64,000 nt of DNA from a virus (lineage: Duplodnaviria > Caudoviricetes), in the IMG/VR virus record IMGVR_UViG_3300028581_000010; one strand, written 5' to 3'. The translations under genes and the position numbers were made by a program. Below are positions 8,295-52,460 of the stretch, piece after piece (the stretch's first letter is position 1; each line of letters begins with the position of its first letter). The notes under the pieces were generated by a model that saw only the letters and a list, made by a program, of their open reading frames with translations, ran no database searches and was not told where the DNA came from.

Positions 8295-10064
8295 ATGGCT
8301 TTAGATCCCAACGGTCCGGGCAACTTCTTCAATTTCGGGCAAAATGCTAAGGATAGGTACTCCAACCCGTTCTATAACATACCTTTACAGTATCTTCCTC
8401 AGAATATTGATGGAATGATGCTCTGGGCGGAGCACTTTTTGTTCCGCAATGGCTTCTACAAGCAAGCGCTGAACCGTATTGCTAACTATTTCATCACATC
8501 TCTCACTATTGAGTGCGATGATAGCGAGGCGAAGGAGAAATATACCAAGGCACTTGACCAGATAGGCTGGAAACATATTCTAGCCAAGGCTGGGCTCAAC
8601 GTATTGGCCTATGGTAACGAGTTTATCACTGTAAACCAGGGGTTTACACGCTATTTGACGTGCCCGGAGTGTGCTAGAGTGCACGCTATTGACAAACTGG
8701 ACGACTTTGAGTTCCAAAGTGGTAAGTATAAGATGACTTGCCAGCAATGCGGCTATCGTGGCAACCACAAGTGCGAGGATAAGTCCTCGAACGATATGGA
8801 GAAGGTCCATGTAGTGCACTGGCCAGCTAAAGAGATCAAGATTAGGCACGAGGACATGACCGGAGAGAGTGAATACTTCTGGGACATACCGCAGACCTAC
8901 ATCAAGAAGATTACAACGAAGAACAACAAGTTCTATAGCAAGAAAACACCACAGGTTGTGTTCGATTGCATCGAGAAGAAGCATATGTTGGCCTTCAACC
9001 CGAAGAACTTTCTGCATCTTACGCTCGACACACCTAATACTATTCGTACTGATGGTAAGGCAGTGCCTCCATGCATGTTCCTGTTCGAAGATTTGTTCAT
9101 GCTACAGACCTTGAAGCGCTACAATGAGGTAATATGCTTCGAAGACATTGCTCCTTTCCGTGTTATCTCTATGGCCAAGGAAGCCAACTCCGCGGCTAAC
9201 CCTATTCTACACCAGAATGGTGGCTTGTGGGCGGCTTCCGTAGACCAGATGATCGAAGAGCACCGCAGAGACCCAGGTTCTTATCATAAATTCCCATTTC
9301 CTGTTGAGTATCAACAGCTTGGTGGTGAGGGTACGAAGCTGGCGCCTGTAGAGCTTATGGAACGTCTGCAAAACAACATCTTAAATGCATTGGATATTCC
9401 GGTGGAGATGTTTCAGATGTCCTTTCAGCAACAAGCTGCTGGTCCTATGCTTCGTATGTTCGAGAATGCCTGGTCTGTCATTCCCGCTAACTATAACAAG
9501 CTACTCAACCACCTAGGTACGGTGATTGGTAAGATACTTGGCCTTGCTGAGGCACAGATATCTCTCATTCCTATTACATTCTCCGACGACATGGAGCGCA
9601 AGTCCGTTGTTGGCCAGCTTGTATCGGCTAATGCTATCGCAAGATCCGAACTGCTCAAGCTATACAACTTCGACTACGAAGATCAGGTGCGCAAAAAGAT
9701 GGAGGAAGATCGTGTTACTGCTGATGTGCAGAAAGAAGAGCAGGAGAAGGACATGATCGCCCAGCAGACAGATGCAGACATCTATAATCTACTCGGGCAG
9801 CAACAGGGTGGACAACAAGGGCAGGGTGGAGCTCCTATGACTCCGCAGGATGCTCTTGCACAGGCCCAGCAGATTGCACAGCAGCTGTTTCCGCTAGACG
9901 GAGCACAACGCAGACAGCAGCTGCAACAACTCAAAGCCCAGGATCAGGGATTGTACGCTCAGGTTAAGTCACAGCTCGACCAGATGACGTCGCAATCTAA
10001 ATCCCAAGGCGTACAGCAAGCCAAGCAGCAAGGGCAGCAAGGCGGACAACCTCCTCAACAGTAA
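8295..10064 (+). CDS. Probable portal protein with Zn-ribbon insert and Gln-rich tail
   Basis: 589 aa; portal-like N-terminus (helix...LAYGNEF), CPEC...CQQC insert, LG(I)P-type segment, Q-rich C-terminus; precedes the tail genes. Confidence 0.6.
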   Translation: MALDPNGPGNFFNFGQNAKDRYSNPFYNIPLQYLPQNIDGMMLWAEHFLFRNGFYKQALNRIANYFITSLTIECDDSEAKEKYTKALDQIGWKHILAKAGLNVLAYGNEFITVNQGFTRYLTCPECARVHAIDKLDDFEFQSGKYKMTCQQCGYRGNHKCEDKSSNDMEKVHVVHWPAKEIKIRHEDMTGESEYFWDIPQTYIKKITTKNNKFYSKKTPQVVFDCIEKKHMLAFNPKNFLHLTLDTPNTIRTDGKAVPPCMFLFEDLFMLQTLKRYNEVICFEDIAPFRVISMAKEANSAANPILHQNGGLWAASVDQMIEEHRRDPGSYHKFPFPVEYQQLGGEGTKLAPVELMERLQNNILNALDIPVEMFQMSFQQQAAGPMLRMFENAWSVIPANYNKLLNHLGTVIGKILGLAEAQISLIPITFSDDMERKSVVGQLVSANAIARSELLKLYNFDYEDQVRKKMEEDRVTADVQKEEQEKDMIAQQTDADIYNLLGQQQGGQQGQGGAPMTPQDALAQAQQIAQQLFPLDGAQRRQQLQQLKAQDQGLYAQVKSQLDQMTSQSKSQGVQQAKQQGQQGGQPPQQ

Positions 10065-23694: not shown

Positions 23695-24156
23695 TTATTC
23701 GGTTTCGTGGTCCACAGGATGCATGTCCTGCAGGTAGTTCTCGAGTGTGGTTATCGAGAGGCCAAGCTCCTTGAAGAAGATTCCACCGCTACCACCGTAG
23801 TAGCCTTCATATTGCTCCTGTATAACAAATATGGCACGGCTGCCCTTGCTCATAAAGCAGTAGCCCTCCATATCCGATAGAGAGGCAGCTGCAATGAGAT
23901 ACTCCGCATACGCCTTTGTCTTCTTGAAGGCCTTGGCGCTCAGTGTATAGGGGCTATCTATTACGTTGGACTCTCCCAGCGTGATGTCTCTATACGTACC
24001 GTCAGTCAACTGATGGAGAGGTATGGTGAACTGAATCTCTCCAGCGTGCCACTCTATACCTTTCTCCGTCAGCTGCTTAAGTGCTTTCTTCGAGACGCCG
24101 AAGTGCTTGTATACTTGTGTGAGAATCTTGGAGCGTGTGAGGTTTAGTTTAGACAT
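23695..24156 (-). CDS. Hypothetical protein
   Basis: 153-aa ORF. Confidence 0.65.
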   Translation of the reverse strand: MSKLNLTRSKILTQVYKHFGVSKKALKQLTEKGIEWHAGEIQFTIPLHQLTDGTYRDITLGESNVIDSPYTLSAKAFKKTKAYAEYLIAAASLSDMEGYCFMSKGSRAIFVIQEQYEGYYGGSGGIFFKELGLSITTLENYLQDMHPVDHETE

Positions 24157-25232
24157 TGGAATAGAAGCTTCTTCATATCATCGTTATCCAGTGTACCTCC
24201 GTCAAGCAATTTAAATGCGAAGCCTGCACGGTTCGTATTGCCGTAGGCCTGCGTAATTGCCAGAGCCGCTTCCTTGCGCCCCGAGCGCTCCTTACCATCG
24301 AAGCCACGTACAAACTGCTCCATGTGTGTCGTTATTCTGTTAACCGTCACCATGGCATCACATATCTTGGAGGCATCTGCCGAGGCTCTGAGCATGCACT
24401 CGAAGTCCAGCTCGTCCTGCAGGTAGGCCATGAAGTCTATGTAATGCGGTCTGCCCTGTTGAAGGTACAAGTCGATGACTCGCTCCACAGAGTAGTCAGA
24501 CTTGAACCGGTGCTTAGCCAGGTAGTCGTCACTCTTGACCTTCTTAATGTCCTGATCGTTATGGTAGTATATGCAGTAGCCCTCGATGCCCAGCACGGTC
24601 TTCATTTCATCCGTAAGCTTGTACAGGTCGCTGTACGTGGCTGTCTTAGGTCTCTTGAGCTTGTACTCCCGCGCAATCTGATCCAGCTCGTGCTGCGGCA
24701 GATACGAATAGTCCAGGTGCTGCACAACACCAACCAGACGTATGTCTGGAATAGCGCCGTAGTCCAGCACTATGACGTTTGTAGGAGTAGTGAACTCATA
24801 CAGAAACGTGTACTGCTCGGAGTTAATCTGAGGGTTGTCGAACGCCATAGGATAGAAGTCCTTGAGCAACTGTAGCTCATCGGCGTTTGCTTGCTCGGCA
24901 AAATCTACCGTACCCCTCGTGCGCACTATCTCATGCCCCTTGTGTTTGGAGACGATGAGGCACGTGCCGTCGAGCTTCTCCACGACTGTGCACTTCTCCA
25001 GCGACACCGGATCGGCGCATATATGAGGAGCTTCACCCAGGTTAAAGAATTTTTTGAAACCCAGAGAGACAGGCTTGCCGTCTCTTGTCCACATGCTTGA
25101 TCTGTAGATCATATTCTCTGCGCCCCACTTGACGCCTATCTTCGTTGGGTAGACCAGATAGAGCTCCTCGCCCTTTATGACTCTGGTCTTAACCGCAAAT
25201 TCCTGTTCTTTGAGTTTCTCTAAGTTAATCAT
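24144..25232 (-). CDS. RNA ligase, T4 Rnl1-like
   Basis: FKKFFNLGE, motif I EKLDGT, FLYEF, motif IV IEGY, motif V KVKSDDY. Confidence 0.85.
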   Translation of the reverse strand: MINLEKLKEQEFAVKTRVIKGEELYLVYPTKIGVKWGAENMIYRSSMWTRDGKPVSLGFKKFFNLGEAPHICADPVSLEKCTVVEKLDGTCLIVSKHKGHEIVRTRGTVDFAEQANADELQLLKDFYPMAFDNPQINSEQYTFLYEFTTPTNVIVLDYGAIPDIRLVGVVQHLDYSYLPQHELDQIAREYKLKRPKTATYSDLYKLTDEMKTVLGIEGYCIYYHNDQDIKKVKSDDYLAKHRFKSDYSVERVIDLYLQQGRPHYIDFMAYLQDELDFECMLRASADASKICDAMVTVNRITTHMEQFVRGFDGKERSGRKEAALAITQAYGNTNRAGFAFKLLDGGTLDNDDMKKLLFQCLN

Positions 25233-26709: not shown

Positions 26710-27249
26710 TTAAGTTGGTGGGCAGAGTAGCATATGCTGCTCCGCATGACAGTTGCGGCACAGTATTTGCAGGTTATTTAAGTCGGAGTTACGCCTATTT
26801 TTATCTTTATGGTGCACTTCTAGCAATTTGGGGAATTTATCATAACTACATAACTCACAGCAGCTTGCTTTATGTTTAAACGCCTTAGCTCTATAGCGGC
26901 TGTAGCCTTCTTCCCCAAGGGTCCCGTAGTGCTCGGGTAAAAACTCCAAGGGGCCACCTACGTGCTGCGCACTAGCCCTACAGGTATTAGAGCAAAAGTA
27001 TAAGCCGCTTTTAGATAGCTTCAACCTACGCGGTGAGCGGTATAGTGCTTTTGCGCAAGCTGCGCACTTTACGTTACTACCCATCCGTTCTTTTCTTTCA
27101 GCTGTTTCTTTTTTACGACGGGCTGCTATGTCCTCTCGGACACAAGCAGCAGAGCAGTATAGCCCCCAACCACGGGCCACATCTCTGGCGGTGGTTAAGA
27201 AGGATTTAGAACAGCGCTTACAGTTTCTGTGTACATTTTTCGTTAACAT
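26710..27249 (-). CDS. HNH homing endonuclease with N-terminal Zn fingers
   Basis: CELC...LEVHHKDKNRRNSDLNNLQILCRNCHAEQH; own promoter TTGTGA-16-TATATT. Confidence 0.85.
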   Translation of the reverse strand: MLTKNVHRNCKRCSKSFLTTARDVARGWGLYCSAACVREDIAARRKKETAERKERMGSNVKCAACAKALYRSPRRLKLSKSGLYFCSNTCRASAQHVGGPLEFLPEHYGTLGEEGYSRYRAKAFKHKASCCELCSYDKFPKLLEVHHKDKNRRNSDLNNLQILCRNCHAEQHMLLCPPT

Positions 27250-27315
27250 AACTACGAATATACACGGTAGATAGAAAATCACAATCTAAATCTGCGTCTA
27301 CCCTGTTGGAAAGAA

Positions 27316-27386
27316 TGGGAGGTGAGGGGATCGAACCCCCGCTTTCTCCGTGTAAAGGAGACTCGCTACCATTACAACAACCCCGC
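27316..27386 (-). tRNA. tRNA-Val(UAC), 5' half overlapping the HNH gene end
   Basis: Loop TT-TAC-AC in stem TCTCC/GGAGA; canonical T-arm; acceptor has a C2:C71 mismatch and the D-stem is weak. Confidence 0.75.
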
Positions 27387-27698
27387 GTGTATTTCGGCGT
27401 GGCAATTTGCACACACCAAATCACATTTGTCTAGCTCGTCAGTAACCTTAGCCCAGGCTCGATTGAATCCAGTACCTATTCCGAAGTCCTTCTTATCCGG
27501 ATCCCTGTGGTGGAAATGCAGTGCAGCTAAGCATTTATCATAGTTGCAATATTTACATTTTCCTCCTTTGTACTCGACAGCTTTACCTTTAATCCTTAGA
27601 TTTTTTGCTTTAGTGAAACACGAGTTGCACATTGTTACTCTGTGCCCGCGACTTCTGGCGTACGCGTATTCCCTGCCGCATTTTTTGCATGTGGTCAT
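27372..27698 (-). CDS. HNH homing endonuclease inserted in tRNA-Val
   Basis: CKYC...LHFHH...ELDKCDLVCANCHAEIH; stop codon lies inside the tRNA D-arm. Confidence 0.85.
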   Translation of the reverse strand: MTTCKKCGREYAYARSRGHRVTMCNSCFTKAKNLRIKGKAVEYKGGKCKYCNYDKCLAALHFHHRDPDKKDFGIGTGFNRAWAKVTDELDKCDLVCANCHAEIHAGLL

Positions 27699-27930: not shown

Positions 27931-28245
27931 TTATGTTGCTTTGTATTTTTCGCAAAGATCCCGCATTGGAACGTATACGATAGGCGCAAGCAGGTTTTCC
28001 ACTTCCTCGGCTGCGATCTTGATTACGTCTCTGTTGTAAGCACTTATAGCGTACGTCCTTTTTCGGAGATGGTGTTCCAACTTGTGTACTTGAAAATAGG
28101 ATACATACAGGCTTTTCTTGCTGGCCACCTCCTTAACCACAGCGAAGCGCATGACTGTATTCACAGGAAACATCACGTAGTCTCCTGGAAACACCGGGCG
28201 CTTAAATAAGTCTAAAAATACTTCTGGTTGTCGTTTGTCATCCAT
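27931..28245 (-). CDS. Hypothetical protein
   Basis: 104-aa ORF; DLFKRPVFPGDYVMF is an SH3-like start common in phage small proteins. Confidence 0.6.
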   Translation of the reverse strand: MDDKRQPEVFLDLFKRPVFPGDYVMFPVNTVMRFAVVKEVASKKSLYVSYFQVHKLEHHLRKRTYAISAYNRDVIKIAAEEVENLLAPIVYVPMRDLCEKYKAT

Positions 28246-28383: not shown

Positions 28384-28467
28384 CAGCGTCGCTAGGGGTC
28401 GAACCTAGAATGCCTAATAGGCTCTATCTCCAAAGGATAGTGTGTCTACCAATTTCACCACGACGCT
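28384..28467 (-). tRNA. Class II tRNA with UUG (Gln) anticodon on a Leu-type scaffold
   Basis: AGCGTCG/CGACGCT-G73; D-arm GTGAAATTGGTAGACAC; loop CT-TTG-GA; variable hairpin GCCT-ATT-AGGC. Confidence 0.8.
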
Positions 28468-28505: not shown

Positions 28506-28578
28506 TAGGAGCTCTGGGACTCGAACCCAGAACCAAGAGCTTAAAGGGCTCCTGCTCTACCAATTGAGCTAAACTCCC
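28506..28578 (-). tRNA. tRNA-Lys(UUU) with C33
   Basis: Cloverleaf; loop CC-TTT-AA. Confidence 0.88.
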
Positions 28579-29003
28579 TGTAATTTATTGTTAGCTAAGT
28601 AATGCAATTCTCTGTGGCAGTTAGCGCAGAGCACCTCACATTTAGCAATCTCGCGTAGAAGTGTGGTCCTTGAATATTTTGCGTACATCACGGATACTTC
28701 ATGAAGTTTATCTTCAGCCTTGTGGTGAAAGTCTAATACATAGTGTCTTGCGTCTCCACATTTAGAGCACTTTAATGTTTGCTTATACTCTATAAACCAC
28801 GTTTTGTTTTCTTGTACGCGCGCAGCTCTCTTGCCGACCTCCGTTTGTTTATTACGCAAATAATAGGCTGTACGGCGCTGTGAAGAGCACGTCTTGCACA
28901 TACACTGCCTGCTCACATATATACTGCCGTCCTTGCGCTTTTTATTTTTTATCCAAAACTGAGACAGGTCCAGCTGCTTCTTACATTTGCTGCATATTTT
29001 CAT
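28569..29003 (-). CDS. HNH homing endonuclease
   Basis: CSKCG...LDFHH...EIAKCEVLCANCHRELH; stop TAG = tRNA-Lys positions 8-10. Confidence 0.85.
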   Translation of the reverse strand: MKICSKCKKQLDLSQFWIKNKKRKDGSIYVSRQCMCKTCSSQRRTAYYLRNKQTEVGKRAARVQENKTWFIEYKQTLKCSKCGDARHYVLDFHHKAEDKLHEVSVMYAKYSRTTLLREIAKCEVLCANCHRELHYLANNKLQGV

Positions 29004-30309: not shown

Positions 30310-30972
30310 TTAGTAGGTCTTTCCCTCGGCATAACGCTTCCTGCGATATGCCCGCCCTTTTCCTTTATTCTTGTTCTTATACGTTGGTAGCTGCATGTCG
30401 CAGTTTCCGCAAACTAAGCGGATGTTATTTATCTTGTTGTTGCCGGAGTCTCCATCAATGTGGTCCATGATTAACGGAATAGGTTGTCCTTGCCATGTTG
30501 TATTCTTACATATGGCGCAGTTGTGTCCTTGTTTTTCCAGCATATAACGCTTAGCTGGGCCTTTTGATCTGGCTGCTATAAAGCTGCCACTCTCGATAAT
30601 TTTGGCGCGCGACGCTGCTCGCCGTGCTTCTGTAGCGCATTCCTGTGAGCAGTACTTAGTGTAAGTCATCACCTTTTTGCAGGTTGCGCATGCCTGTTGT
30701 GTACGTTGCAGCCTAGCTACAGTTACAATATCTAGCGAGCCTGCGCCACGCCGATATCGGCCTACATTGTTGTGGCTTACAGCGCAACCGCAGCTACAAA
30801 ACTTATTATGTCTTTTAGCGTATATAAGTTCCCGTTTACAGGTAGTGCAGTGTGCAGGGTTATCTTTATATTGTTGCTTGCGCTTTAAGCATATAGCTTG
30901 TTGCGTTTCTCTGGATTTTAGCCAACCTAGCCTCCCAGCTTCGGTATGGCTCATTTTATTAGTTGAGTTCAT
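30310..30972 (-). CDS. HNH homing endonuclease with Zn fingers
   Basis: CAIC...MDHIDGDSGNNKINNIRLVCGNC; promoter TTGAAT-16-TAGACT, 7 nt before ATG. Confidence 0.85.
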   Translation of the reverse strand: MNSTNKMSHTEAGRLGWLKSRETQQAICLKRKQQYKDNPAHCTTCKRELIYAKRHNKFCSCGCAVSHNNVGRYRRGAGSLDIVTVARLQRTQQACATCKKVMTYTKYCSQECATEARRAASRAKIIESGSFIAARSKGPAKRYMLEKQGHNCAICKNTTWQGQPIPLIMDHIDGDSGNNKINNIRLVCGNCDMQLPTYKNKNKGKGRAYRRKRYAEGKTY

Positions 30973-31017
30973 GCAACAAGTCTACCAACCATTGCAAAAC
31001 ATTCAAGTATAAAGATG

Positions 31018-31091
31018 AGCCCTTGCTCAGATTCGAACTGAGGACATCCTCATTACAGGTGAGGTGCTCTAACCAACTGAGCTACAAGGGC
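31018..31091 (-). tRNA. tRNA-Thr(UGU) with C33
   Basis: Cloverleaf; loop CC-TGT-AA. Confidence 0.9.
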
Positions 31092-31094
31092 TTA

Positions 31095-31165
31095 TGGAGC
31101 TGTCGAGGGTCGAACTCGAGAATCCGGCTTGCAGGGCCAGTGTTTTACCACTAAACTACAACCCC
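31095..31165 (-). tRNA. tRNA-Ala(UGC) with C33
   Basis: G3:U70 Ala identity pair; loop CC-TGC-AA. Confidence 0.9.
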
Positions 31166-31176
31166 ATGTAAAAATC

Positions 31177-31943: not shown

Positions 31944-32549
31944 TTAGCTTAACTGCAGGCTCTTTGGTAATCCATCGCCTTCGATGGTCTTCTTGAAGCA
32001 CATGTTTGCGGCGATATGGTAGCACACGATGCCCTCAGGGTTCATGAAGCCTGGTGCGGCTGCGCTGCCGTTTTCCTTTAGCTTGGCTAGCGTATCGTCA
32101 CATGCTTCTGTTGTAAATGGTCCCCTGTATAACACAGGCGCCAAGTGGCAGCAGGCAGGCAGCACTTCCTGGAGCTTGCTACCAACCAAAGCGGGCTCTG
32201 TGCCGTGAGCGCACCATCTGGAGACGTTGAATAGGCTCCAGCGCTTTTCCTTCATGTTGTATTTTCTCTGAATACCCAAGCCCCACCATTCTCCAAAGTG
32301 GCGGCCAGGCCCAAGAGTAATGAGCTCGTCACGGTGCTCTGTTACCCAGCGGGCAAACCCAGCATTATCATCCTGAGGTGTAATCCACCTCGTACGGGAG
32401 CCGATCAACAGCTTGCCCTCGTCAGTGATGTACACACAGGCGTTGGTCCCATCGATTTTTTCACTAATTATTACTTCTCTTGACAATCTCGCCATCTTTG
32501 GGAAAGCAAGAAACTCGTCATTTATTGTTGTTTGATTTGTGTTTTCCAT
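31944..32549 (-). CDS. RNA ligase (Rnl2-like adenylyltransferase domain only)
   Basis: EKIDGTN, GSRTRWI, FGEWWG, PEGIV, FKKT. Confidence 0.85.
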   Translation of the reverse strand: MENTNQTTINDEFLAFPKMARLSREVIISEKIDGTNACVYITDEGKLLIGSRTRWITPQDDNAGFARWVTEHRDELITLGPGRHFGEWWGLGIQRKYNMKEKRWSLFNVSRWCAHGTEPALVGSKLQEVLPACCHLAPVLYRGPFTTEACDDTLAKLKENGSAAAPGFMNPEGIVCYHIAANMCFKKTIEGDGLPKSLQLS

Positions 32550-33043: not shown

Positions 33044-33775
33044 CTAGACTAGTAGTTTTTTGTAGGCCCTCTTACAGATGTCGACTGCGACATCAGTGTC
33101 GAAGGTCATTACAACACCTGGGGCTTTTCTAGCCTCGTCGAATTCGTTCATGGCTCCTGTCGCCCAGACCTGCAGCTCCTCCACACTGAATAGCTCAGGG
33201 TTTGTTCTTATCTTAAGTAGTTGGTCCGCCAATGCAGGCTTCCACTTGCGCACATGCACAGGATAGACACCGGTTCTTAGAAACTCAGCGCTGCATAGCA
33301 ATATGCGTATAGCGTGCGCTACGTTCTTCGGAGAGAAGCCGTATTTGGCTAGGAGCTCTTTTCTACTCGCGCCTAGGTCACCAGCCTTCTGGCCGAAGCC
33401 CACCATGATCTCGTTTGAGGCATACCCCATCGAGGCATGGCCGTAGTGGTTGGTGTCTATGAGCTGCGACCTGTGTTGGAGTATGTCCTTCAGCACGTCG
33501 CTGCTATAGAGCCACGTATCGTTGAACATCAGCTCGACGGTCTTGACCGTTGATCTGCGACACAGATGTAGAAAGTGGCGCAGTTCCCAGTACGACTCGT
33601 TCTCCGTTGTAGTGTTGTGCACCCAGCTATCGTCTGTGGCTAGGCCGAACAGTGCGCCTGGTTTGTCTGTGAGGTATATACCAGCATAGTCATGATCGCT
33701 GTCCTCGGTATTGATCCCATACATTCGAGATCCGTTTAGGTAAAGTCCTACGTAATTAAGTTTTTCATTTGGCAT
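33044..33775 (-). CDS. RlaP-like (Pol beta superfamily) nucleotidyltransferase
   Basis: GSRMYGINTEDSDHDYAGIY (GS...DxD), E-x-x-x-F, KNVAHAIRIL. Confidence 0.8.
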   Translation of the reverse strand: MPNEKLNYVGLYLNGSRMYGINTEDSDHDYAGIYLTDKPGALFGLATDDSWVHNTTTENESYWELRHFLHLCRRSTVKTVELMFNDTWLYSSDVLKDILQHRSQLIDTNHYGHASMGYASNEIMVGFGQKAGDLGASRKELLAKYGFSPKNVAHAIRILLCSAEFLRTGVYPVHVRKWKPALADQLLKIRTNPELFSVEELQVWATGAMNEFDEARKAPGVVMTFDTDVAVDICKRAYKKLLV

Positions 33776-33817: not shown

Positions 33818-34321
33818 TTATGGCTCTTGTAGTAAATACTGCGTCATCTCTTCGATCGAGTAGCAAATCACACCGTTGTAACCAAAACAGGCAGCTCGAA
33901 CGATAACTTCTTGCCCGTATTGGTAGGTCATAGGAAAGCCGACCACCAGCTTCTGCTTTACAGCGTCCACTTCATGGGACTCGCTGACACACTCCTGCCT
34001 TTGTAAAATAGCACCTAGCTCAAACATAGCCAGGTCTTTACAAAAGTCATCCTCGAACCACAGCACTACAGTAGATGCGCTCTTGCATCTCTTGTGCTGC
34101 CATTCTATATCCGTGTACTGCTCCTCCGCGGTCTGACGATGCAGAACCTGCCAAGTGGGTTTGGGTACATAGATTGTTGTTGCGGTGTGTTGCAACCCTC
34201 CGTTGACTAGCCTGTCTCTCCAGTTGTCTTCCACATACTGTGAGGGGCTGCCGCCTAGGTATATTGTCTTAGGAAATCTCGCCTTCTCGTAGTTCGGGCT
34301 TACTATTATCTGTGCTATCAT
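33818..34321 (-). CDS. Nucleoside 2-deoxyribosyltransferase-like protein
   Basis: TIYLGGS...WRD...EWQH...VVLWF...MFELGA. Confidence 0.7.
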   Translation of the reverse strand: MIAQIIVSPNYEKARFPKTIYLGGSPSQYVEDNWRDRLVNGGLQHTATTIYVPKPTWQVLHRQTAEEQYTDIEWQHKRCKSASTVVLWFEDDFCKDLAMFELGAILQRQECVSESHEVDAVKQKLVVGFPMTYQYGQEVIVRAACFGYNGVICYSIEEMTQYLLQEP

Positions 34322-34709
34322 GATTGAATATTATGCGCATGTGATTGTCGAGTATATTTGAGGCCTCTTCCTTGGTTACCCATAGAAAGCTGTCCAGCTC
34401 GGGCTCGCCGTTAGGGCACAAGGCTATGCACCTTATATCCTCGGGGACCTCCTGCAGCTCTGCAGCAAATACGACAATCTCCTTCTTGTGGCGCTTGGTT
34501 GTGTAGCGCATTATCGGCGTTACACCAATGTCGCCAGGCTGGAGAGTTATGTTCGTCTCCTCCTTGAGCTCACGCAGGGCAGTCTCGGCCTCTGTCTCGC
34601 CTTCCTCTTGCTTACCTTTAGGTATGCTGTAGCTCTTGAAAGTACCGCTGGCTCTACCCAGCAGGTACTTGTCCTTCACCTTCAGCAGAACCCCACACGA
34701 CTTTATCAT
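34269..34709 (-). CDS. Nudix hydrolase
   Basis: Nudix box GKQEEGETEAETALRELKEETNI. Confidence 0.9.
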   Translation of the reverse strand: MIKSCGVLLKVKDKYLLGRASGTFKSYSIPKGKQEEGETEAETALRELKEETNITLQPGDIGVTPIMRYTTKRHKKEIVVFAAELQEVPEDIRCIALCPNGEPELDSFLWVTKEEASNILDNHMRIIFNHDSTDNSKPELREGEIS

Positions 34710-35499
34710 TTTTGTATTTGATTATGTTGATGGTACCGTTTTCGATTGTCAGATACTCCTCACCCAGAGTATCTATGAAGTAGCCGTTAGCGATGCTATC
34801 CTTCTTGTTTGGAAACCAGCTCTGTACCACGTGCCTGTTCGGCGTATGGCCCATGATCTGGTCAATGCCGCGGATTGGTGTGAACTGTGTCATGTGTAGC
34901 CAGTACGGCCCGCCATGACCAGGTTCTCCGCACCTGTAGCCTTGATACATGAAGTGATGGTAGCCGCTCTTCTCCGCCGCTTCGCGCCACCTCGGCTCCT
35001 GCTTCTTCATCTCAAAGAGATGCTCGTCCACAGTGAGGTCCATCAGGTGCCTAAACTTGCCACCCTTCTTCACGTACTCCATGTGGCGGAATCCGTATAG
35101 GTTGGCTAGCGTGAAGCCTGCGTGGCTTATGACTATGGGCCGCTCGTCTCTACCGCGTTGAATCTCGTAGTAGAGCCTCAGCTGCCGGAAGTCCAGCTCG
35201 TTTATAATGCTTCGTATGGCCCTGTTCTTCTCTGGGCTGTATCCTGGACACCACAACGCACTATTATGACAGAAGGCGTAGGCTGCGTCGTGGTTGCCTA
35301 GGAGATGTATGCGGTTTGGCCTGGTAAGAGACCTCTTGAGCCAGTTGGCCGTCTTTCTTGCTATGTGCTCGTCATCTCCCCAGCCGTCGAAGTAGTCACC
35401 ACAAAATATGATCTTGTGAGTGTCCTCGTACTTGGAAGCAACGTGCTCAGCCGCATCTATTCTGTTGTGTATGTCTCCGTATACGAGGTACTTATCCAT
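34654..35499 (-). CDS. Calcineurin-like metallophosphoesterase
   Basis: GDIHN, GDYFD, GNHD, SHAG, GHTP. Confidence 0.9.
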   Translation of the reverse strand: MDKYLVYGDIHNRIDAAEHVASKYEDTHKIIFCGDYFDGWGDDEHIARKTANWLKRSLTRPNRIHLLGNHDAAYAFCHNSALWCPGYSPEKNRAIRSIINELDFRQLRLYYEIQRGRDERPIVISHAGFTLANLYGFRHMEYVKKGGKFRHLMDLTVDEHLFEMKKQEPRWREAAEKSGYHHFMYQGYRCGEPGHGGPYWLHMTQFTPIRGIDQIMGHTPNRHVVQSWFPNKKDSIANGYFIDTLGEEYLTIENGTINIIKYKNDKVVWGSAEGEGQVPAG

Positions 35500-49296: not shown

Positions 49297-49737
49297 ATGA
49301 TAGACCCCCTCTTTGCTAGGCTTGGAGGCTATAATGCGCGAGGCATAAAGCCCACCACGCGACAATTTACATCTAAGTTTGTTGGAGTGCGCTGGCACAC
49401 ACAAAGAAAAAAGTGGCAAGCATATATTAGCTTAGGGAAGAAGCAGCTGCACCTCGGTATGTACGCCACAGAGGATGAAGCCGCCCGCGCATATGATAAA
49501 GCTACATTGCTTTTTGTGAAAACCGGCGTCATTAACCTTAACTTCAGTAAAAAGGACTATGCCGCGCTTGATCTAGCGGCATGGTACGCCTCCATTCAGC
49601 GTACATATACCTCCAAGCATAAACACGTTAGTTTCTGCCACACTCATAAGCGCTGGCTTGTAAAATACCCTCCAACGAAGGTGCGCCGCTTCAAAACGGA
49701 GGCTGAGGCAGTTAGCTATGCCTCTACCCTAGCTTAA
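49297..49737 (+). CDS. AP2-domain protein, probably a decayed homing endonuclease
   Basis: SKFVGVRWHTQRKKWQAYI...HLGMYATEDEAARAYDKA; no intact nuclease domain; opposite strand to its neighbours. Confidence 0.75.
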   Translation: MIDPLFARLGGYNARGIKPTTRQFTSKFVGVRWHTQRKKWQAYISLGKKQLHLGMYATEDEAARAYDKATLLFVKTGVINLNFSKKDYAALDLAAWYASIQRTYTSKHKHVSFCHTHKRWLVKYPPTKVRRFKTEAEAVSYASTLA

Positions 49738-52460
49738 TCATCCCACACCCATAGCCCGTTCTTAAAATCCCACTTGGTAGCTTTGTCGAATACCGCATCT
49801 TTCCCTTTCCAAGCGTTCGCAGCTACTATCTCGCAGCCAAGCGCGTCGCCGGTGACCAGCCGCACTTTATCGCAAAACATATACTTTAAAACCTCCGGAA
49901 AGTAGTTGTCTTTAAACAGAGCTTTGTGCACTATCCATATTGCTGCGTCATGAATAGTGTTAACTGGATACACGTATTTCATCCAGAGCCCTTCTTTTTT
50001 TAAAAAGGTCCTTAACTGCACTAAAGCATCCCATAGGTAGCAGGCGAGCTCTGATGCTATAGGAAATGCAAGAGATTCATTCAGCCAACCGGCTTTGATG
50101 CCGAAGTTGTCTGTATCCTCGTACAGCAAGCGCATTCCTCGCGCATTGGTTATACGGTTGTGTGCCTCCACTTCATGTGTACACTCCTCACGGTACGCCA
50201 TGTAGCGCTCATACCTTCTCCAGGTACCTAGCGCATATTTGATTGTTTCGATGTCCACCATCAGCCCGTTCTCGGCATAGATGTCTGCCTTGATAGGCTC
50301 GGCAGCAAAGTCTAGTCCTGCTGTGTAGGACACGCGGAATGTAATCCCCTTCGAGATAACATACTTGGCGATATCCTTCTTTGTCAGCTCCGGATCGTTG
50401 AAGTACTCCCGCATCTTTGTTTGGTGGAAGTTGCCCGCACGTATGTCTGCAATGAACAGCGGGTCTTGTGAGATAAACGCCATGATAGCAAGGTCTGCTC
50501 CTGCTATGTCTAGCTCCACCCAGTGAAAGTCAGGGTCTCCTGGGTAGAAGATCTGCCTGATGTTGTTGGGTAGGAACTTCTCCGCGGCCTTTAACTCTGA
50601 GCCGGAGAGCTTCGATATGCCTGGCACAAATATCTCTGGTATATACGACAAAACCTTCGAAGCAGGATTCTGTACGTTAGGCGAGCTCGACGACCTAAAG
50701 TTTTTCAAGAGCTCGAAGAACGAGGCATGTATTCTACCATCTTTTGCGATCGCTGCCCAGTAACTTTGCTTTAAAGGAACCTCCAGATTAGCTAGCTCCT
50801 CCTCGTCGTCCTCTTCCTCTTCCTGCTCAACATCTAGTACCAAACCCTTCTTGGATAAGAACTTAGTGGCAAAGACGCTTACTCGGTTGAAGTTAAGCAT
50901 CAACGAGATGAGATCTAATTTATCTTGTAGGTCTCTATTATGTGGCATGAATTCCAGTTGTTCAGCCAGATTAAACTTGATCGTCGCCAGTGACTTACCG
51001 TTCGACGACGGCGCAAATTGCGCCTGTATGTTTTTCTTCTGCTTGTTGTACCAAGCAGCAGATTTCGGGGATTTGCCGGCCTTAGTGTAATACGCAGGCT
51101 CTAATTCCAAGGTTTTGAACAGAAGCTCTCTTTTCTGTATCGACGAGTTCGGGTTGAACTCCTCTATACCGTAGCGCTCCTTGAGCAATCCCGCGAGCTG
51201 CATCTTCAGCTCCATGTACTTCTCCATGTACTTGTTAGTGACGTCATCGAGAAGTTCCTTATCCACTGGTATGCCGGTATACTCCATGTCTGTGAAGTAA
51301 CTCGTCAGCGGAAGATATACGTTGAAATAGTAATCCTGTAAATGCTCGGGAAAGGCACGCATCATCTTGAGGCAGGCCCTGCGGTGAGATACTGCGTCAC
51401 CAGCACAATAATCATAGTAGACTTCTGGCTCGAGAAATTTCATCTTGGCCATCTCTTTCTTATTGATCTTATGCTCCTTCATCTTTCTAGCAAACTCGAC
51501 GTAGTAGGGCTTGTAGCTGGTGAACAGCCTAATGCCGGTCTCCAACCCTTTACCTAGTCGTGAGTCAAAGAAGGCCACTGCCTTCATGCCGTCGAACGCC
51601 AGCGTTTCATCTGGAAGCTTGAAGCCTCTATGCATGAGCCGCAGGTCGTCAGCGCGGATGTTCCATCCAAGCCTCTCTGCCTGTGGGTGCTCCAATATCA
51701 TCTTCATCGTATCGAGCAGCTCTCTGTTCTCGGTCTTACCGTCTGGAGAGATGTTCAGTATGACGGCGACGTGATCTTCACAGCTATACTGGAACTCATA
51801 CATCACTTCATCGTCAGCCCACTTCTCACCACACCACTCAGCGTCATACCCAATCTTAAACGCACCCTTGTCGATGTAGTCTTGAAGAATCTTCTTGTTC
51901 TCCTCTGGGTCGTTGATGATCCTGTACGTGTAGGGCACGAAGTGCAGGTCGTCGTCGAGCAGTCGTGTGACCATCTCGAAGCTTCTCCGGAACGCGGGTC
52001 TCTTTGTCGGGTCCTGTGCAACAATGAATCCTGGGGCATAGGTAGGCATGAGCTTACCGTAGGGTGAGTCAACAAACTCACCTATGTAGTCGCCCATCTT
52101 GATGTTGGTCTTCATCATTCGCTTGAATACCTCTGCCCCTAGAGTAATGATCACTTTTGGGTTTACATCCTTGACCTCCTGGTCGAACTCCTCTGCAAAG
52201 AACTCTATGTCCTCTGCTGTGGGTTTCTTACCTGCTCCCAACCCACATTTAACCATTCCAGTGAAGTAGACCTTCTCCTGTGGAATGCCAGCCAGATCCA
52301 GTGCTTGGTGCACCTCTGCTGCTGCAAACCCTGCCACACCAAATGCACGCTCTGTTAGGTCATCTGGACTAGGGTGTGAGAAGACTACCATTACCTCAGC
52401 CTCCTCAGGGTCGCCGTTAGGCTCCACTCTTACTTTATCCTCTATAGGTATTCCTGCCAT
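49734..52460 (-). CDS. Family A DNA polymerase with N-terminal uracil-DNA glycosylase-like domain (SPO1-type)
   Basis: UDG4-like N-terminus (VKC..., PKVIITLG); exonuclease YDAE, DAVSH; polymerase motifs LDIAGAD, KGITF...Y, IHDA. Confidence 0.9.
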   Translation of the reverse strand: MAGIPIEDKVRVEPNGDPEEAEVMVVFSHPSPDDLTERAFGVAGFAAAEVHQALDLAGIPQEKVYFTGMVKCGLGAGKKPTAEDIEFFAEEFDQEVKDVNPKVIITLGAEVFKRMMKTNIKMGDYIGEFVDSPYGKLMPTYAPGFIVAQDPTKRPAFRRSFEMVTRLLDDDLHFVPYTYRIINDPEENKKILQDYIDKGAFKIGYDAEWCGEKWADDEVMYEFQYSCEDHVAVILNISPDGKTENRELLDTMKMILEHPQAERLGWNIRADDLRLMHRGFKLPDETLAFDGMKAVAFFDSRLGKGLETGIRLFTSYKPYYVEFARKMKEHKINKKEMAKMKFLEPEVYYDYCAGDAVSHRRACLKMMRAFPEHLQDYYFNVYLPLTSYFTDMEYTGIPVDKELLDDVTNKYMEKYMELKMQLAGLLKERYGIEEFNPNSSIQKRELLFKTLELEPAYYTKAGKSPKSAAWYNKQKKNIQAQFAPSSNGKSLATIKFNLAEQLEFMPHNRDLQDKLDLISLMLNFNRVSVFATKFLSKKGLVLDVEQEEEEDDEEELANLEVPLKQSYWAAIAKDGRIHASFFELLKNFRSSSSPNVQNPASKVLSYIPEIFVPGISKLSGSELKAAEKFLPNNIRQIFYPGDPDFHWVELDIAGADLAIMAFISQDPLFIADIRAGNFHQTKMREYFNDPELTKKDIAKYVISKGITFRVSYTAGLDFAAEPIKADIYAENGLMVDIETIKYALGTWRRYERYMAYREECTHEVEAHNRITNARGMRLLYEDTDNFGIKAGWLNESLAFPIASELACYLWDALVQLRTFLKKEGLWMKYVYPVNTIHDAAIWIVHKALFKDNYFPEVLKYMFCDKVRLVTGDALGCEIVAANAWKGKDAVFDKATKWDFKNGLWVWDD

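What the first reader, a model, noticed from the sequence alone, without database searches (positions are those of the whole stretch)
28384..28467. Class II tRNA with Leu-type body, Gln anticodon (UUG) and G73
The D-arm (GTGAAATTGGTAGACAC) and long variable hairpin are typical of tRNA-Leu, and loop CT-TTG-GA is one substitution from Leu(UAG). Bacterial tRNA-Gln is normally class I. The discriminator is G (LeuRS needs A73; SerRS reads the long arm and accepts G73; GlnRS prefers G73 and a weak first pair, here A1:U72). It could be a re-engineered, nuclease-resistant tRNA-Gln, or a missense tRNA putting Ser/Leu at CAA/CAG codons.
Basis: partly seen in the sequence, partly recalled or inferred. 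Interest (0 to 1): 0.7.

Follow-up and report, generated by a model that had tools for sequence, protein, structure and literature searches.

The report
Phage glutamine tRNA on leucine scaffold
A lake-water jumbo phage carries an intact tRNA that reads the glutamine codon CAA but has the core and extra arm of a leucine tRNA and the acceptor end of a glutamine tRNA; it looks like a tRNA rebuilt from one amino acid to another, and its charging has not been tested.

Summary
Window 28467->28384 (minus strand) is a perfect 84-nt cloverleaf with anticodon UUG, a 15-nt variable arm, A1:U72, G73 and G37. The sequence is identical in a second assembly and in contigs of four further lake-water runs, so TTG is not an assembly error.

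It is a mosaic.
- The core (D-arm, anticodon stem, variable arm, G37) is tRNA-Leu(CUN) type. My class II Leu model gives 57.8 bits, the Ser model 39.9 and the canonical Gln model 30.0.
- All 8 IMG/VR tRNAs that share its D-arm 3' half and anticodon stem are tRNA-Leu.
- The acceptor end (A1:U72, G2:C71, C3:G70, G73) is tRNA-Gln type. It matches the ordinary tRNA-Gln of a related phage at 6 of 7 positions and carries none of the Leu marks (A73, C2:G71).
- The phage places CAA where homologues conserve Gln (13 of 15 conserved columns, none Leu or Ser).

Best reading (about 0.58): a working CAA-reading tRNA-Gln remoulded from a Leu scaffold. Ser or Leu missense, a decoy role and a dead relic remain possible.

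This scan had already noted long-armed phage tRNA-Gln on other DNA. The Leu-derived core here, and a phage-only tRNA-Gln family sharing that D-arm, are the additions. I found no paper describing either.

The parts
28384..28467 (-). Whole tRNA gene, 84 nt from A1 to G73. Class II shape with anticodon UUG.
   Evidence: ARAGORN; Rfam RF00005 50.7 bits; Leu-type model R1 57.8 bits
28461..28467 (-). Acceptor stem, 5' strand AGCGUCG (A1, G2, C3 ...)
   Evidence: The top three pairs plus position 73 match the class I tRNA-Gln of related phage L074 at 6 of 7 positions.
28442..28458 (-). D-arm GUG-AAAUUGGUAGA-CAC: 3-bp stem and 11-nt loop, the tRNA-Leu architecture with A15 and an extra A after U20
   Evidence: Identical to the D-arm of the class II tRNA-Leu genes in L078 and L082; 16 of 17 with E. 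coli leuU
28424..28440 (-). Anticodon arm: stem CUAUC/GAUAG, loop CUUUGGA
   Evidence: The stem matches E. coli leuU at 8 of 10 positions through one compensatory pair change.
28431..28433 (-). Anticodon UUG (plus strand CAA). It is followed by G37 at 28430.
   Evidence: Read directly; unchanged in four further runs; G37 in 0 of 28 phage tRNA-Gln and 13 of 30 tRNA-Leu
28409..28423 (-). Variable arm, 15 nt: one unpaired A, a 3-4 bp stem GCC(U)/(A)GGC, a small loop, then three unpaired nt AUU (U48 could pair with A15)
   Evidence: 11 of 15 with the E. coli leuU arm and 10 of 15 with the long-armed phage tRNA-Gln of L054, L059 and L083. Same 1-3-5-3 geometry as that lineage.
28392..28408 (-). T-arm CUAGG-UUCGACC-CCUAG
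   Evidence: Identical (17 of 17) to the T-arm of the phage tRNA-Gln in L047. The CUAGG stem is seen in 3 of 15 family tRNA-Gln from the scan and in 0 of 30 tRNA-Leu.
28384..28391 (-). Acceptor stem 3' strand CGACGCU plus discriminator G73 (28384). It is followed by CUUUUU, with no encoded CCA.
   Evidence: A73 in 30 of 30 tRNA-Leu and G73 in 23 of 28 tRNA-Gln of the phage set.
29010..29038 (-). Promoter-like site TTGACA-17-TATATT upstream of the HNH gene, tRNA-Lys and this tRNA. A possible transcription start for the unit; consensus match only.
   Evidence: 11 of 12 matches; the number of sites in the region is not above the shuffled expectation

Best explanation
This is a functional phage tRNA that decodes CAA (and probably some CAG) as glutamine, built on a class II tRNA-Leu(CUN)-type scaffold. 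That makes it an alloacceptor-remoulded, or mosaic, tRNA.

Shown:
- The gene is intact, and it is identical in every assembly that covers it.
- Its D-arm, anticodon stem, variable arm and G37 are Leu-type.
- Its anticodon, discriminator and top three acceptor pairs are Gln-type.
- The phage writes CAA where glutamine is conserved.

Inferred mechanism:
- G73 and the loss of C2:G71 and G1:C72 remove leucine identity.
- U35, G36, G10:C25, G2:C71, G73 and a weak A1:U72 pair let the host GlnRS charge it, or ND-GluRS followed by GatCAB.
- G36-G37 would make it a substrate for the host TrmD (m1G37).
- The host adds CCA.

Likely use:
- It supplies CAA decoding, together with the other U34 tRNAs of the array, for a genome rich in A-ending codons.
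- Its non-standard body may also escape host enzymes that cut or recognise normal tRNA-Gln.

I put about 0.65-0.7 on glutamine function and about 0.6 on a Leu-derived core.
For: Real and intact:
-. All stems are fully paired, and U8, A14, G18G19, U33 and the T-loop GTTCGA are present.
- It is identical in L064 and in four further runs.

Leu-type core:
- Model scores are Leu 57.8, Ser 39.9 and canonical Gln 30.0 bits. The Gln score is the lowest of the nine tRNAs in the array.
- An anticodon-blind pattern scan gave 8 of 8 class II tRNA-Leu, two of them with the identical D-arm.
- Against E. coli leuU: D-arm 16 of 17, anticodon stem 8 of 10, variable arm 11 of 15.
- Similarity of D-arm plus anticodon stem: unbiased Leu mean 17.0, canonical Gln 11.9, other tRNAs 11.8, out of 27.

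Gln-type ends:
- 1:72 is weak (U:A or A:U) in 26 of 28 phage tRNA-Gln and G:C or G:U in 27 of 30 Leu.
- C2:G71 in 27 of 30 Leu; the target has G2:C71.
- A73 in 30 of 30 Leu; G73 in 23 of 28 Gln.
- 6 of 7 identity with the class I tRNA-Gln of related phage L074 over pairs 1-3 plus position 73.
- A weak FastTree tree puts the target among the phage tRNA-Gln, not among the Leu.

Established knowledge (review PMC9976931):
- GlnRS reads U35, G36, 10:25, the acceptor pairs and position 73.
- A class II amber tRNA-Ser became a Gln acceptor after two acceptor-pair changes, so a long arm does not block GlnRS.

Coding and context:
- Of the CAA codons that fall in columns at least 60% conserved, 13 of 15 are Gln and none is Leu or Ser.
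- CAA is 35% of Gln codons. Six of the ten tRNAs in the window, the target included, have U34 and pair with A-ending codons.

Precedent:
- Another long-armed tRNA-Gln(UUG) with the same D-arm type, G73 and the same arm geometry is conserved across three phages about 80% identical (L054, L059/L084, L083).
Against: - No charging, expression or modification data exist. No RNA run holds the phage.
- The tRNA departs from the E. coli GlnRS identity set at 3:70 (C:G, not G:C), at 37 (G, not A) and at 38 (A, not U).
- A1:U72 is not the U1:A72 that GatCAB and GluRS2 are reported to read.
- G73, G2:C71 and a long arm are also serine marks.
- G37 is unique among the 29 tRNA-Gln I compared.
- No close relative carries this gene. 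Phages with 47-55% identical ATPase lack it, and in L073 tRNA-Lys and tRNA-His are adjacent where this gene sits.
- So there is no covariation evidence and no test of purifying selection for this particular sequence.
- The host is unknown.
- Parts of my comparison set were retrieved with patterns taken from the target. This biases similarity to the 'family' and to the eight Leu genes.
- The origin could instead be a Gln-lineage tRNA that gained an arm.
Confidence: 0.58

Rival explanations
1. It is a missense or ambiguous tRNA. SerRS charges it (long arm, G73, G2:C71), or LeuRS still does to some degree, so Ser or Leu enters at CAA/CAG codons, either in addition to Gln or instead of it.
For: - The anticodon is not read by SerRS or LeuRS.
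- G73 and G2:C71 are serine determinants, and C2:G71, the E. coli tRNA-Leu antideterminant against SerRS, is absent.
- Replacing A73 by G73 is part of reported Leu-to-Ser identity switches (review PMC9976931).
- The Leu tertiary set (A15, U48, G18G19, extra A after U20) is intact.
Against: - A1:U72 replaces the G1:C72 that the review calls absolutely conserved in bacterial tRNA-Ser. It is G:C in 14 of 17 phage tRNA-Ser.
- 3:70 is C:G, against A:U in 14 of 17 Ser.
- The arm is 15 nt with three unpaired 3' bases. Ser arms are 14-23 nt, mostly 16-20, and those ARAGORN could parse have mostly one unpaired 3' base.
- The Ser model score of 39.9 bits is below that of three class I tRNAs of the same array.
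- G73 is listed as an antideterminant against LeuRS.
- CAA lies at conserved-Gln columns, 13 of 15, none Leu or Ser. Heavy substitution would therefore damage the phage's own proteins.
Confidence: 0.13
2. It is mainly a counter-defence RNA and not a translation component. It could be a decoy or sponge for a host tRNA-Gln-directed nuclease or sensor, or a nuclease-proof spare that matters only when host tRNA-Gln is cut.
For: - RNA-repair genes flank the array: a T4 Rnl1-type ligase, a second RNA ligase (PF09414), an RlaP nucleotidyltransferase and a metallophosphoesterase.
- Three neighbouring tRNAs carry C33.
- Published cases show phage tRNAs escaping or neutralising tRNA-cutting defences (PMC10264068, PMC11464382, PMC11555353).
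Against: - There is no evidence for any nuclease that targets tRNA-Gln in the unknown host.
- A spare tRNA that resists cutting is still a working tRNA-Gln, so this reading overlaps with the best explanation.
- A pure decoy would not need a perfect acceptor stem with Gln-type identity pairs.
Confidence: 0.1
3. It is a decaying or neutral copy of a tRNA-Leu(UAG) gene that happened to acquire A35U and A73G. It is not charged and has no role.
For: - The loop is one substitution from a Leu(UAG) loop.
- The gene is a singleton: no homologue with G37 turned up in IMG/VR or in JGI metagenomes, and related phages lack it.
- An earlier unchecked note places a tRNA-Leu(UAG) elsewhere in this phage.
Against: - All 24-25 stem pairs and all conserved tertiary bases are intact.
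- The differences from Leu sit at exactly the identity positions (35, 73, 1:72, 2:71), and all point to one other identity, Gln.
- Random decay would also hit the stems.
Confidence: 0.1
4. A rival on origin only. The tRNA is not Leu-derived. It belongs to the phage-only tRNA-Gln family with a Leu-like D-arm and gained its hairpin by a roughly 10-nt insertion in the variable loop. On this reading its likeness to Leu in the anticodon stem and arm is convergent.
For: - At least 16 phage tRNA-Gln share the D-arm type, G73 and a weak 1:72 pair, with 4-8 nt variable loops.
- 6 of 7 tRNAs sharing both the D-loop and the CUAGG T-stem are tRNA-Gln and none is Leu.
- L069 ends its 5-nt variable loop in GCAUU, the same letters that end the target's arm.
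- The tree places the target among these.
Against: - The anticodon stem, the arm (11 of 15 with leuU) and G37 match Leu(CUN) tRNAs. They do not match family members, which have anticodon stems 2-4 of 10 identical and always A37.
- The family itself scores higher with the class II Leu model than with the canonical Gln model in most members, so it may itself be Leu-derived.
- The tRNA tree rests on about 70 sites and shows no support values.
Confidence: 0.25

Closest known systems
Alloacceptor tRNA remoulding / anticodon shift (metazoan mitochondria, PMC4783518; eukaryotic nuclear genomes, PMC3923123)
   Same: [quoted passage not shown] The anticodon and identity positions have changed while the scaffold was kept.
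   Different: - It occurs in a bacteriophage and crosses the class II to class I boundary, keeping the long arm.
- The acceptor end has also been converted (1:72, 2:71, 73), not only the anticodon.
- The donor gene and the duplication step were not observed here.
Bacterial and phage class II tRNA-Leu(CUN), e.g. E. coli leuU tRNA-Leu(GAG)
   Same: - D-arm 16-17 of 17 identical
- anticodon stem 8-9 of 10
- 15-nt variable arm 11 of 15
- G37
- best model score of the three tested
   Different: - anticodon UUG, not NAG
- G73, not A73
- A1:U72 and G2:C71, not G1:C72 and C2:G71

These are the marks that define or protect leucine identity.
Canonical bacterial and phage class I tRNA-Gln(UUG)
   Same: - anticodon UUG
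- G73
- weak first pair
- G2:C71
- G10:C25
- acceptor top identical at 6 of 7 positions to the tRNA-Gln of related phage L074
   Different: - long variable arm, against 4-5 nt
- Leu-type 17-nt D-arm, against the 15-nt GUGUAAYGGUAGCAC type
- G37, not A37
- lowest score of the array with the canonical Gln model
Engineered identity switches on class II scaffolds: amber tRNA-Ser converted to a Gln acceptor by two acceptor-helix pair changes (review PMC9976931, its reference 82)
   Same: A long-armed tRNA becomes a GlnRS substrate when the central anticodon base is U and the top acceptor pairs are changed. This is the logic inferred here.
   Different: That was a laboratory suppressor reading UAG on a Ser body. 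This is a natural gene reading a sense codon on a Leu body, and it is untested.
Nuclease-evading or defence-neutralising phage tRNAs (PMC10264068, PMC11464382, PMC11555353)
   Same: A phage-encoded tRNA with non-host features, in an array next to RNA-repair genes.
   Different: Those cases involve anticodon-loop changes or specific tRNAs (Lys, Tyr) with a demonstrated defence partner. Here the whole body differs and no defence partner is known.
allo-tRNAs (8/4 or 9/3 acceptor/T-stem tRNAs with long arms and varied anticodons; PMC5389517)
   Same: A long-armed tRNA carrying an anticodon that does not belong to Ser, Leu or Tyr, and a candidate for missense use.
   Different: The target has the canonical 7/5 architecture and Gln-type, not Ser-type, acceptor pairs.

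Membership tests
tRNA (Rfam RF00005) | Cloverleaf with conserved U8, A14, G18G19, U33 and the GTTCRA T-loop; score above the gathering threshold | tested here: met
   50.7 bits against 29; ARAGORN call; 7/3/5/5 stems all paired
Bacterial class II tRNA-Leu | Long variable arm and Leu-type D-arm (3-bp stem, A15, G18G19 placement, extra A after U20; U48) | tested here: met
   Leu model 57.8 bits, 20 bits above any other tRNA of the array; 8 of 8 pattern hits are tRNA-Leu
Bacterial class II tRNA-Leu | Discriminator A73 (major LeuRS determinant) | tested here: not met
   G73. A73 in 30 of 30 tRNA-Leu of the set. The review lists G73 as an antideterminant against LeuRS.
Bacterial class II tRNA-Leu | Leucine anticodon (NAG or NAA, with A35) | tested here: not met
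   Anticodon UUG; unchanged in 5 further assemblies
Bacterial tRNA-Gln | Anticodon YUG with U35 and G36 | tested here: met
   UUG
Bacterial tRNA-Gln | Acceptor-end identity: G73, weak 1:72 pair, G2:C71, plus G10:C25 | tested here: met
   A1:U72, G2:C71, G73 and G10:C25. Frequencies in phage tRNA-Gln. 6 of 7 with the L074 tRNA-Gln.
Bacterial tRNA-Gln | E. coli-type G3:C70, A37 and U38 | tested here: not met
   C3:G70, G37 and A38. However, C3:G70 occurs in 14 of 28 phage tRNA-Gln. A37 is in 28 of 28.
Bacterial tRNA-Gln | Class I shape (4-5 nt variable loop) and the usual Gln D-arm | tested here: not met
   15-nt arm and 17-nt Leu-type D-arm; canonical Gln model 30.0 bits, the lowest of nine tRNAs
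Bacterial tRNA-Gln | Charged with glutamine, directly or through Glu plus amidation | not testable with these tools
   Needs aminoacylation assays. Indirect support only: CAA at conserved-Gln columns.
Bacterial tRNA-Ser | G1:C72, G2:C71 and (A3:U70), G73, long arm of Ser geometry | tested here: not met
   G73 and G2:C71 are present. But 1:72 is A:U and 3:70 is C:G, and the arm is 15 nt with three unpaired 3' bases. The Ser model score of 39.9 bits is not distinctive.
Phage-only tRNA-Gln family with Leu-like D-arm (a grouping made here) | G-N-G-G/A-AAUUGGUAGA-C-N-C D-arm, UUG or CUG anticodon, G73, weak 1:72 pair; found in phages, not in cells | tested here: met
   One tRNA among 185,579 cell genomes, in a 6.8-kb MAG contig with 5 tRNAs. 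The target differs by G37 and, like the L054 lineage, by the long arm.
allo-tRNA | 8/4 or 9/3 acceptor/T-stem configuration | tested here: not met
   Canonical 7/5

The most novel reading that the evidence does not exclude
The tRNA is deliberately dual-identity. GlnRS and SerRS (or LeuRS) both charge it, so that during infection CAA/CAG codons are read ambiguously. This could, for example, corrupt host or competitor proteins or diversify phage proteins. Alternatively, it is a chargeable decoy that disarms a host system sensing or cutting tRNA-Gln. Either would be a natural phage use of an identity-hybrid tRNA.
Probability: 0.1. Interest if true: 0.85.

Novelty: new variant of a known kind. Interest (0 to 1): 0.55.

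Why it matters
If it is charged with glutamine, this is a natural case of a tRNA moved between amino-acid identities across the class II/class I divide while keeping the long arm. It would show which few positions (35, 73, 1:72, 2:71) are enough to do that in nature.

It also points to a phage-restricted lineage of tRNA-Gln that carries a leucine-type core and is absent from 185,579 cell genomes. Phages therefore appear to maintain their own tRNA designs instead of copying host genes.

Such bodies are candidates for tRNAs that host tRNA-directed defences do not recognise, and they could serve as scaffolds for orthogonal tRNA engineering.

If it were instead charged with Ser or Leu, it would be a natural missense tRNA in a virus.

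Tried and rejected
- **Close homologues.** An exact 35-mer of the tRNA in IMG/VR gave 0 hits. BLAST against INPHARED at E 0.01 gave none, and at E 10 only weak tRNA-Leu pieces.
- **Metagenome scan.** The scan for Leu-type D-loop plus CUUUGRA plus a long arm found only the L054/L059/L083 lineage. No G37 form was found. These scans need exact motif matches, so diverged relatives would be missed.
- **Walking off the window.** I tried to reach the second tRNA island and the reported tRNA-Leu(UAG). Two look-ups found no exact product. Two returned only contigs of 1-4 kb.
- **Expression.** No RNA holder is listed for this phage, so nothing can be said about expression.
- **Single-strand MFE fold.** It does not give the cloverleaf (z -1.2). 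That is usual for tRNAs and was not used as evidence.
- **Variable-arm geometry.** ARAGORN leaves most Leu arms unparsed, so the Leu versus Ser comparison is only partial.
- **tRNA tree.** It has about 70 sites and no support values; I treat it as weak.
- **Synteny.** Relatives by ATPase (47-55% identity: L065, L067, L071-L074) have tRNA arrays but not this gene.
- **Literature.** Searches for long-armed or class II tRNA-Gln in phages found no description. The library is partial.
- **Other codes and gene types.** Stop-codon recoding, an intron and an 8/4 or 9/3 allo-tRNA were considered and rejected. The anticodon is a sense anticodon, the loop has 7 nt and the stems are 7/5.
- **Phage-encoded charging enzymes.** No aminoacyl-tRNA synthetase or amidotransferase turned up among the 46 ORFs screened, 28 of them against Pfam.
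Full report
**What is there**

The window is part of an uncultured phage of about 215 kb from lake-water metagenomes. Its DNA polymerase is only about 25% identical to those of cultured phages, and the longest contig carrying its ATPase is 215,276 bp.

On the minus strand, ARAGORN finds ten tRNA genes: tRNA-Met at 1948-2021, and nine between 27.3 and 31.3 kb (Val, Ile, His, Gln, Lys, Asp, Thr, Ala, Pro). The nine are interspersed with four HNH endonuclease genes.

The finding is the gene at 28467->28384. ARAGORN calls it tRNA-Gln(UUG). Rfam's tRNA model gives 50.7 bits against a threshold of 29 in the permissive search; the default filtered run had skipped it.

The cloverleaf is flawless:
- a 7-bp acceptor stem AGCGUCG/CGACGCU, then U8 G9
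- a 3-bp D-stem with an 11-nt loop (GUG-AAAUUGGUAGA-CAC)
- a 5-bp anticodon stem CUAUC/GAUAG with the 7-nt loop CUUUGGA
- a 15-nt variable region with a 3-4 bp hairpin and three unpaired bases, AUU
- the T-arm CUAGG-UUCGACC-CCUAG
- discriminator G73

No CCA is encoded. That holds for 8 of the 10 tRNAs here.

**Is TTG real?**

An independent ENA contig from another sample is 100% identical over 13,163 bp including the gene (L064). Logan contigs of four further lake-water runs cover 28384-28467 with no differences. Contigs cannot exclude rare variants.

**What kind of body is it?**

I built three covariance models from phage tRNAs that had not been selected by similarity to the target: 12 class II Leu, 15 Ser and 8 ordinary class I Gln.

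| Model | Target score | Rank among the nine tRNAs of the array |
|---|---|---|
| Class II Leu | 57.8 bits | first; next best 38.3 |
| Ser | 39.9 bits | fourth, below three class I tRNAs |
| Canonical Gln | 30.0 bits | last |

Further evidence points the same way:
- BLAST of the gene against 5,426 E. coli genomes hits only leuU, the tRNA-Leu next to secG. Against INPHARED the best hits with an annotated feature are mostly tRNA-Leu. All these hits are weak.
- I scanned IMG/VR with a pattern that fixes the D-arm 3' half and the anticodon stem and leaves the anticodon free. It returned eight tRNAs, and all are class II tRNA-Leu (GAG seven times, CAG once) with A73. Two have exactly the target's D-arm.
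- Against E. coli leuU the D-arm is 16 of 17, the anticodon stem 8 of 10 (one compensatory pair) and the variable arm 11 of 15.
- G37 occurs in 13 of 30 tRNA-Leu and 0 of 28 tRNA-Gln in my set of 295 distinct phage tRNAs.

**What kind of ends?**

The identity-bearing ends are not Leu-like.

| Group | 1:72 | 2:71 | 3:70 | 73 |
|---|---|---|---|---|
| tRNA-Leu (30) | G:C or G:U in 27 | C:G in 27 | mixed (C:G 14, G:C 10) | A in 30 |
| tRNA-Ser (17) | G:C in 14 | G:C in 16 | A:U in 14 | G in 12 |
| tRNA-Gln (28) | U:A or A:U in 26 | G:C in 18 | C:G in 14 | G in 23 |
| Target | A:U | G:C | C:G | G |

The target therefore has the Gln pattern. Over the top three pairs plus position 73 it matches 6 of 7 positions of the ordinary class I tRNA-Gln(UUG) of a related phage. 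That phage is L074, with an ATPase 55% identical, and its tRNA-Gln also begins A1:U72.

Similarity of D-arm plus anticodon stem to the target, out of 27:
- unbiased Leu: mean 17.0
- canonical Gln: mean 11.9
- all other tRNAs: mean 11.8

Similarity of acceptor plus T-arm to the target, out of 31:
- Leu: mean 11.9
- Gln: mean 15.8
- all other tRNAs: mean 14.1

The gene is thus a mosaic with a Leu core and Gln ends.

**A wider family**

A scan of IMG/VR for the D-loop motif followed by a CUUUGRA loop gave 23 loci. At least 16 distinct tRNA-Gln (UUG or CUG) in them have the same Leu-type D-arm, mostly U1:A72 and G73, and always A37. Their variable loops are mostly only 4-8 nt.

- Several share the target's CUAGG T-stem. 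One, in L047, shares the whole T-arm. No tRNA-Leu in my set has that stem.
- Most members score higher with the class II Leu model than with the canonical Gln model, although they lack the arm.
- The same motif scan over one genome for each of 185,579 bacterial and archaeal species gave 23 matches. About 35 would be expected by chance (my own estimate from database size). Only one match is a tRNA, and it lies in a 6.8-kb MAG contig with five tRNAs that looks viral.

This D-arm on a tRNA-Gln is therefore a phage feature, not a host one.

One lineage keeps a long arm (L054, L059/L084, L083). These three phages are about 80% identical in DNA and carry a nearly unchanged 85-87 nt tRNA-Gln(UUG). 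Its 15-nt arm ends in GCAUU and has the same 1-3-5-3 layout as the target's. A different long-armed tRNA-Gln(CUG), not Leu-like, is in L020.

Earlier agents of this scan had already recorded long-armed phage tRNA-Gln on other DNA. I did not rely on those notes, but my loci agree with them.

**Origin**

The simplest account is that a class II tRNA-Leu(CUN) gene was converted to glutamine identity. The arm was then kept in the target and in the L054 lineage and lost in most family members.

The alternative is a Gln-lineage tRNA that acquired an arm. That would have to explain the Leu-like anticodon stem, arm sequence and G37 as convergence.

A FastTree tree on about 70 sites groups the target with the family tRNA-Gln and not with the Leu genes. 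It has no support values, and its deep branches are not credible.

Part of my comparison set was retrieved with motifs taken from the target, which inflates similarity on both sides. The model scores and the E. coli and INPHARED BLAST results are free of that bias.

An earlier first-reader note, unchecked, says the same phage has a tRNA-Leu(UAG) about 14 kb beyond this window. I could not fetch it. That comparison would settle the origin.

**Which amino acid?**

This cannot be computed, only argued.

From the identity review (PMC9976931):
- E. coli LeuRS ignores the anticodon and the arm sequence. It depends on A73 (minimal tRNA-Leu lost leucylation when A73 became C73) and on elbow tertiary contacts, and G73 is listed as an antideterminant against LeuRS in tRNA-Ser.
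- GlnRS reads U35, G36, 10:25, the acceptor pairs 1:72 to 3:70 and position 73.
- A class II amber tRNA-Ser became a glutamine acceptor after two acceptor-pair changes, so a long arm does not exclude GlnRS.
- SerRS relies on the arm and tertiary shape, with G73, G1:C72 and G2:C71.

The target has lost the Leu marks and has most of the Gln marks. It lacks G3:C70, A37 and U38 of the E. coli set, although half of the phage tRNA-Gln also have C3:G70. It has only some of the Ser marks: G73, G2:C71 and an arm, but A1:U72, C3:G70 and a short arm with three unpaired 3' bases.

The positions that differ from Leu are exactly the identity positions, and all point to one other identity. That argues for selection and against decay.

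**What the phage's own genes expect**

CAA makes up 35% of the Gln codons in 74 ORFs. Six of the ten tRNAs in the window, the target included, have U34 and pair with A-ending codons: GUA, ACA, GCA, CCA, AAA and CAA.

I aligned three phage proteins each with about 120 homologues and looked at the columns where the phage uses CAA.

| Protein | CAA codons in columns at least 60% conserved | Conserved residue there |
|---|---|---|
| 589-aa protein (20 CAA scored) | 13 | Gln 11, Asn 1, Lys 1 |
| DNA polymerase | 1 | Gln |
| ATPase | 1 | Gln |

No such column is Leu or Ser, and CAG behaves the same way. CAA is therefore meant as glutamine. A tRNA that put Ser or Leu there efficiently would harm the phage. 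This does not exclude low-level ambiguity.

**Surroundings**

Next to the array lie:
- a T4 Rnl1-type RNA ligase (24144-25232)
- a second RNA ligase domain protein (31944-32549)
- an RlaP RNA-repair nucleotidyltransferase (33044-33775)
- a metallophosphoesterase (34654-35499)
- NUDIX and deoxyribosyltransferase-like genes

tRNA-Lys, tRNA-Thr and tRNA-Ala have C33 in place of U33; another agent has also noted this.

This is the setting expected for a phage that contends with host tRNA-cutting defences (PMC10264068, PMC11464382, PMC11555353). It makes a role in evading nucleases plausible for an unusual tRNA-Gln body, but nothing here tests it.

A promoter-like site at 29038-29010 could drive the HNH gene, tRNA-Lys and this tRNA as one unit. 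It is a consensus match only.

**Comparison with what is known**

- In mechanism this resembles alloacceptor tRNA remoulding, documented in mitochondria and in eukaryotic nuclear genomes (PMC4783518, PMC3923123).
- It also resembles laboratory identity switches on class II suppressor tRNAs.
- It is not an allo-tRNA, because its stems are 7/5 (PMC5389517).
- It fails membership of tRNA-Leu (A73, anticodon).
- It fails membership of canonical tRNA-Gln (shape, D-arm, A37).
- It fails membership of tRNA-Ser (1:72, 3:70, arm).
- It fits the phage-only Leu-core tRNA-Gln grouping defined here.
- I found no paper describing long-armed or Leu-core tRNA-Gln in phages. The searchable library is partial.

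**Verdict**

- Most likely (about 0.58): a working CAA-reading tRNA-Gln on a Leu-derived class II scaffold.
- Ser or Leu missense: about 0.13.
- Mainly a counter-defence decoy or spare: about 0.10.
- Inactive relic: about 0.10.

It is a new variant of a known kind. I score interest at 0.55. The design is unusual and apparently undescribed, but similar long-armed phage tRNA-Gln have already turned up repeatedly in this scan, and the key property, charging, is untested.

Noticed in passing
window 24144-25232(-), 31944-32549(-), 33044-33775(-), 34654-35499(-), 34269-34709(-), 33818-34321(-): A set of RNA-repair-type genes flanks the tRNA array: a T4 Rnl1-family RNA ligase (PF09511), a second RNA ligase domain protein (PF09414), an RlaP 'RNA repair pathway' nucleotidyltransferase (PF10127) and a calcineurin-like phosphoesterase. 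NUDIX and nucleoside deoxyribosyltransferase-like genes sit beside them.
   Followed up: partly
window 28506-28578(-), 31017-31091(-), 31094-31166(-): tRNA-Lys(UUU), tRNA-Thr(UGU) and tRNA-Ala(UGC) have C at position 33 (loops CCUUUAA, CCUGUAA, CCUGCAA), in place of the near-universal U33. Another agent has also noted this.
   Followed up: no
window 26710-27282(-), 27372-27698(-), 28569-29003(-), 30310-30972(-): Four HNH endonuclease genes are interleaved with the tRNA genes. In the related locus L073, tRNA-Lys and tRNA-His are 18 nt apart. Here the odd tRNA-Gln and a 104-aa ORF with no family match (27931-28245) lie between them.
   Followed up: partly
L001 15547-15632; L018 3272-3361 and 3970-4062; L020 414-502 and 1438-1525; L027 8110-8193; L034 8107-8187; L065 2567-2655; L083 4499-4583 and 4679-4767: Many other phage contigs carry tRNAs of 81-93 nt with class I anticodons (Cys, Asn, Ile-UAU, Gln-CUG, Lys, Met, Thr, Glu) and long variable arms. 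The L020 tRNA-Gln(CUG) has U1:A72, G73 and an encoded CCA, but it is not Leu-like.
   Followed up: partly
L067 5278-6042 and 9137-9526: A 211-kb relative (ATPase 47% identical) encodes a Thg1-family tRNA-His guanylyltransferase and a PTH2 peptidyl-tRNA hydrolase beside its tRNA array.
   Followed up: no
L105 5716-5790: The only cell-genome hit for the Leu-core tRNA-Gln family lies in a 6.8-kb contig of an Ignavibacteria MAG that holds five tRNA genes. It is probably a phage contig binned into the MAG.
   Followed up: no
window 49734-52460(-): The DNA polymerase belongs to a large clade of freshwater phage contigs of about 190-220 kb. Homologues are 50-68% identical, and their precomputed Pfam domains are a family-4 uracil-DNA glycosylase fused to a family A polymerase.
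   Followed up: no
window 8295-10064(+): A 589-aa protein with about 10% glutamine (21 CAA, 40 CAG) and no Pfam or PHROG match. It is conserved at 70-75% identity in more than 70 freshwater phage contigs, and some sources call it a Zn-ribbon protein.
   Followed up: partly
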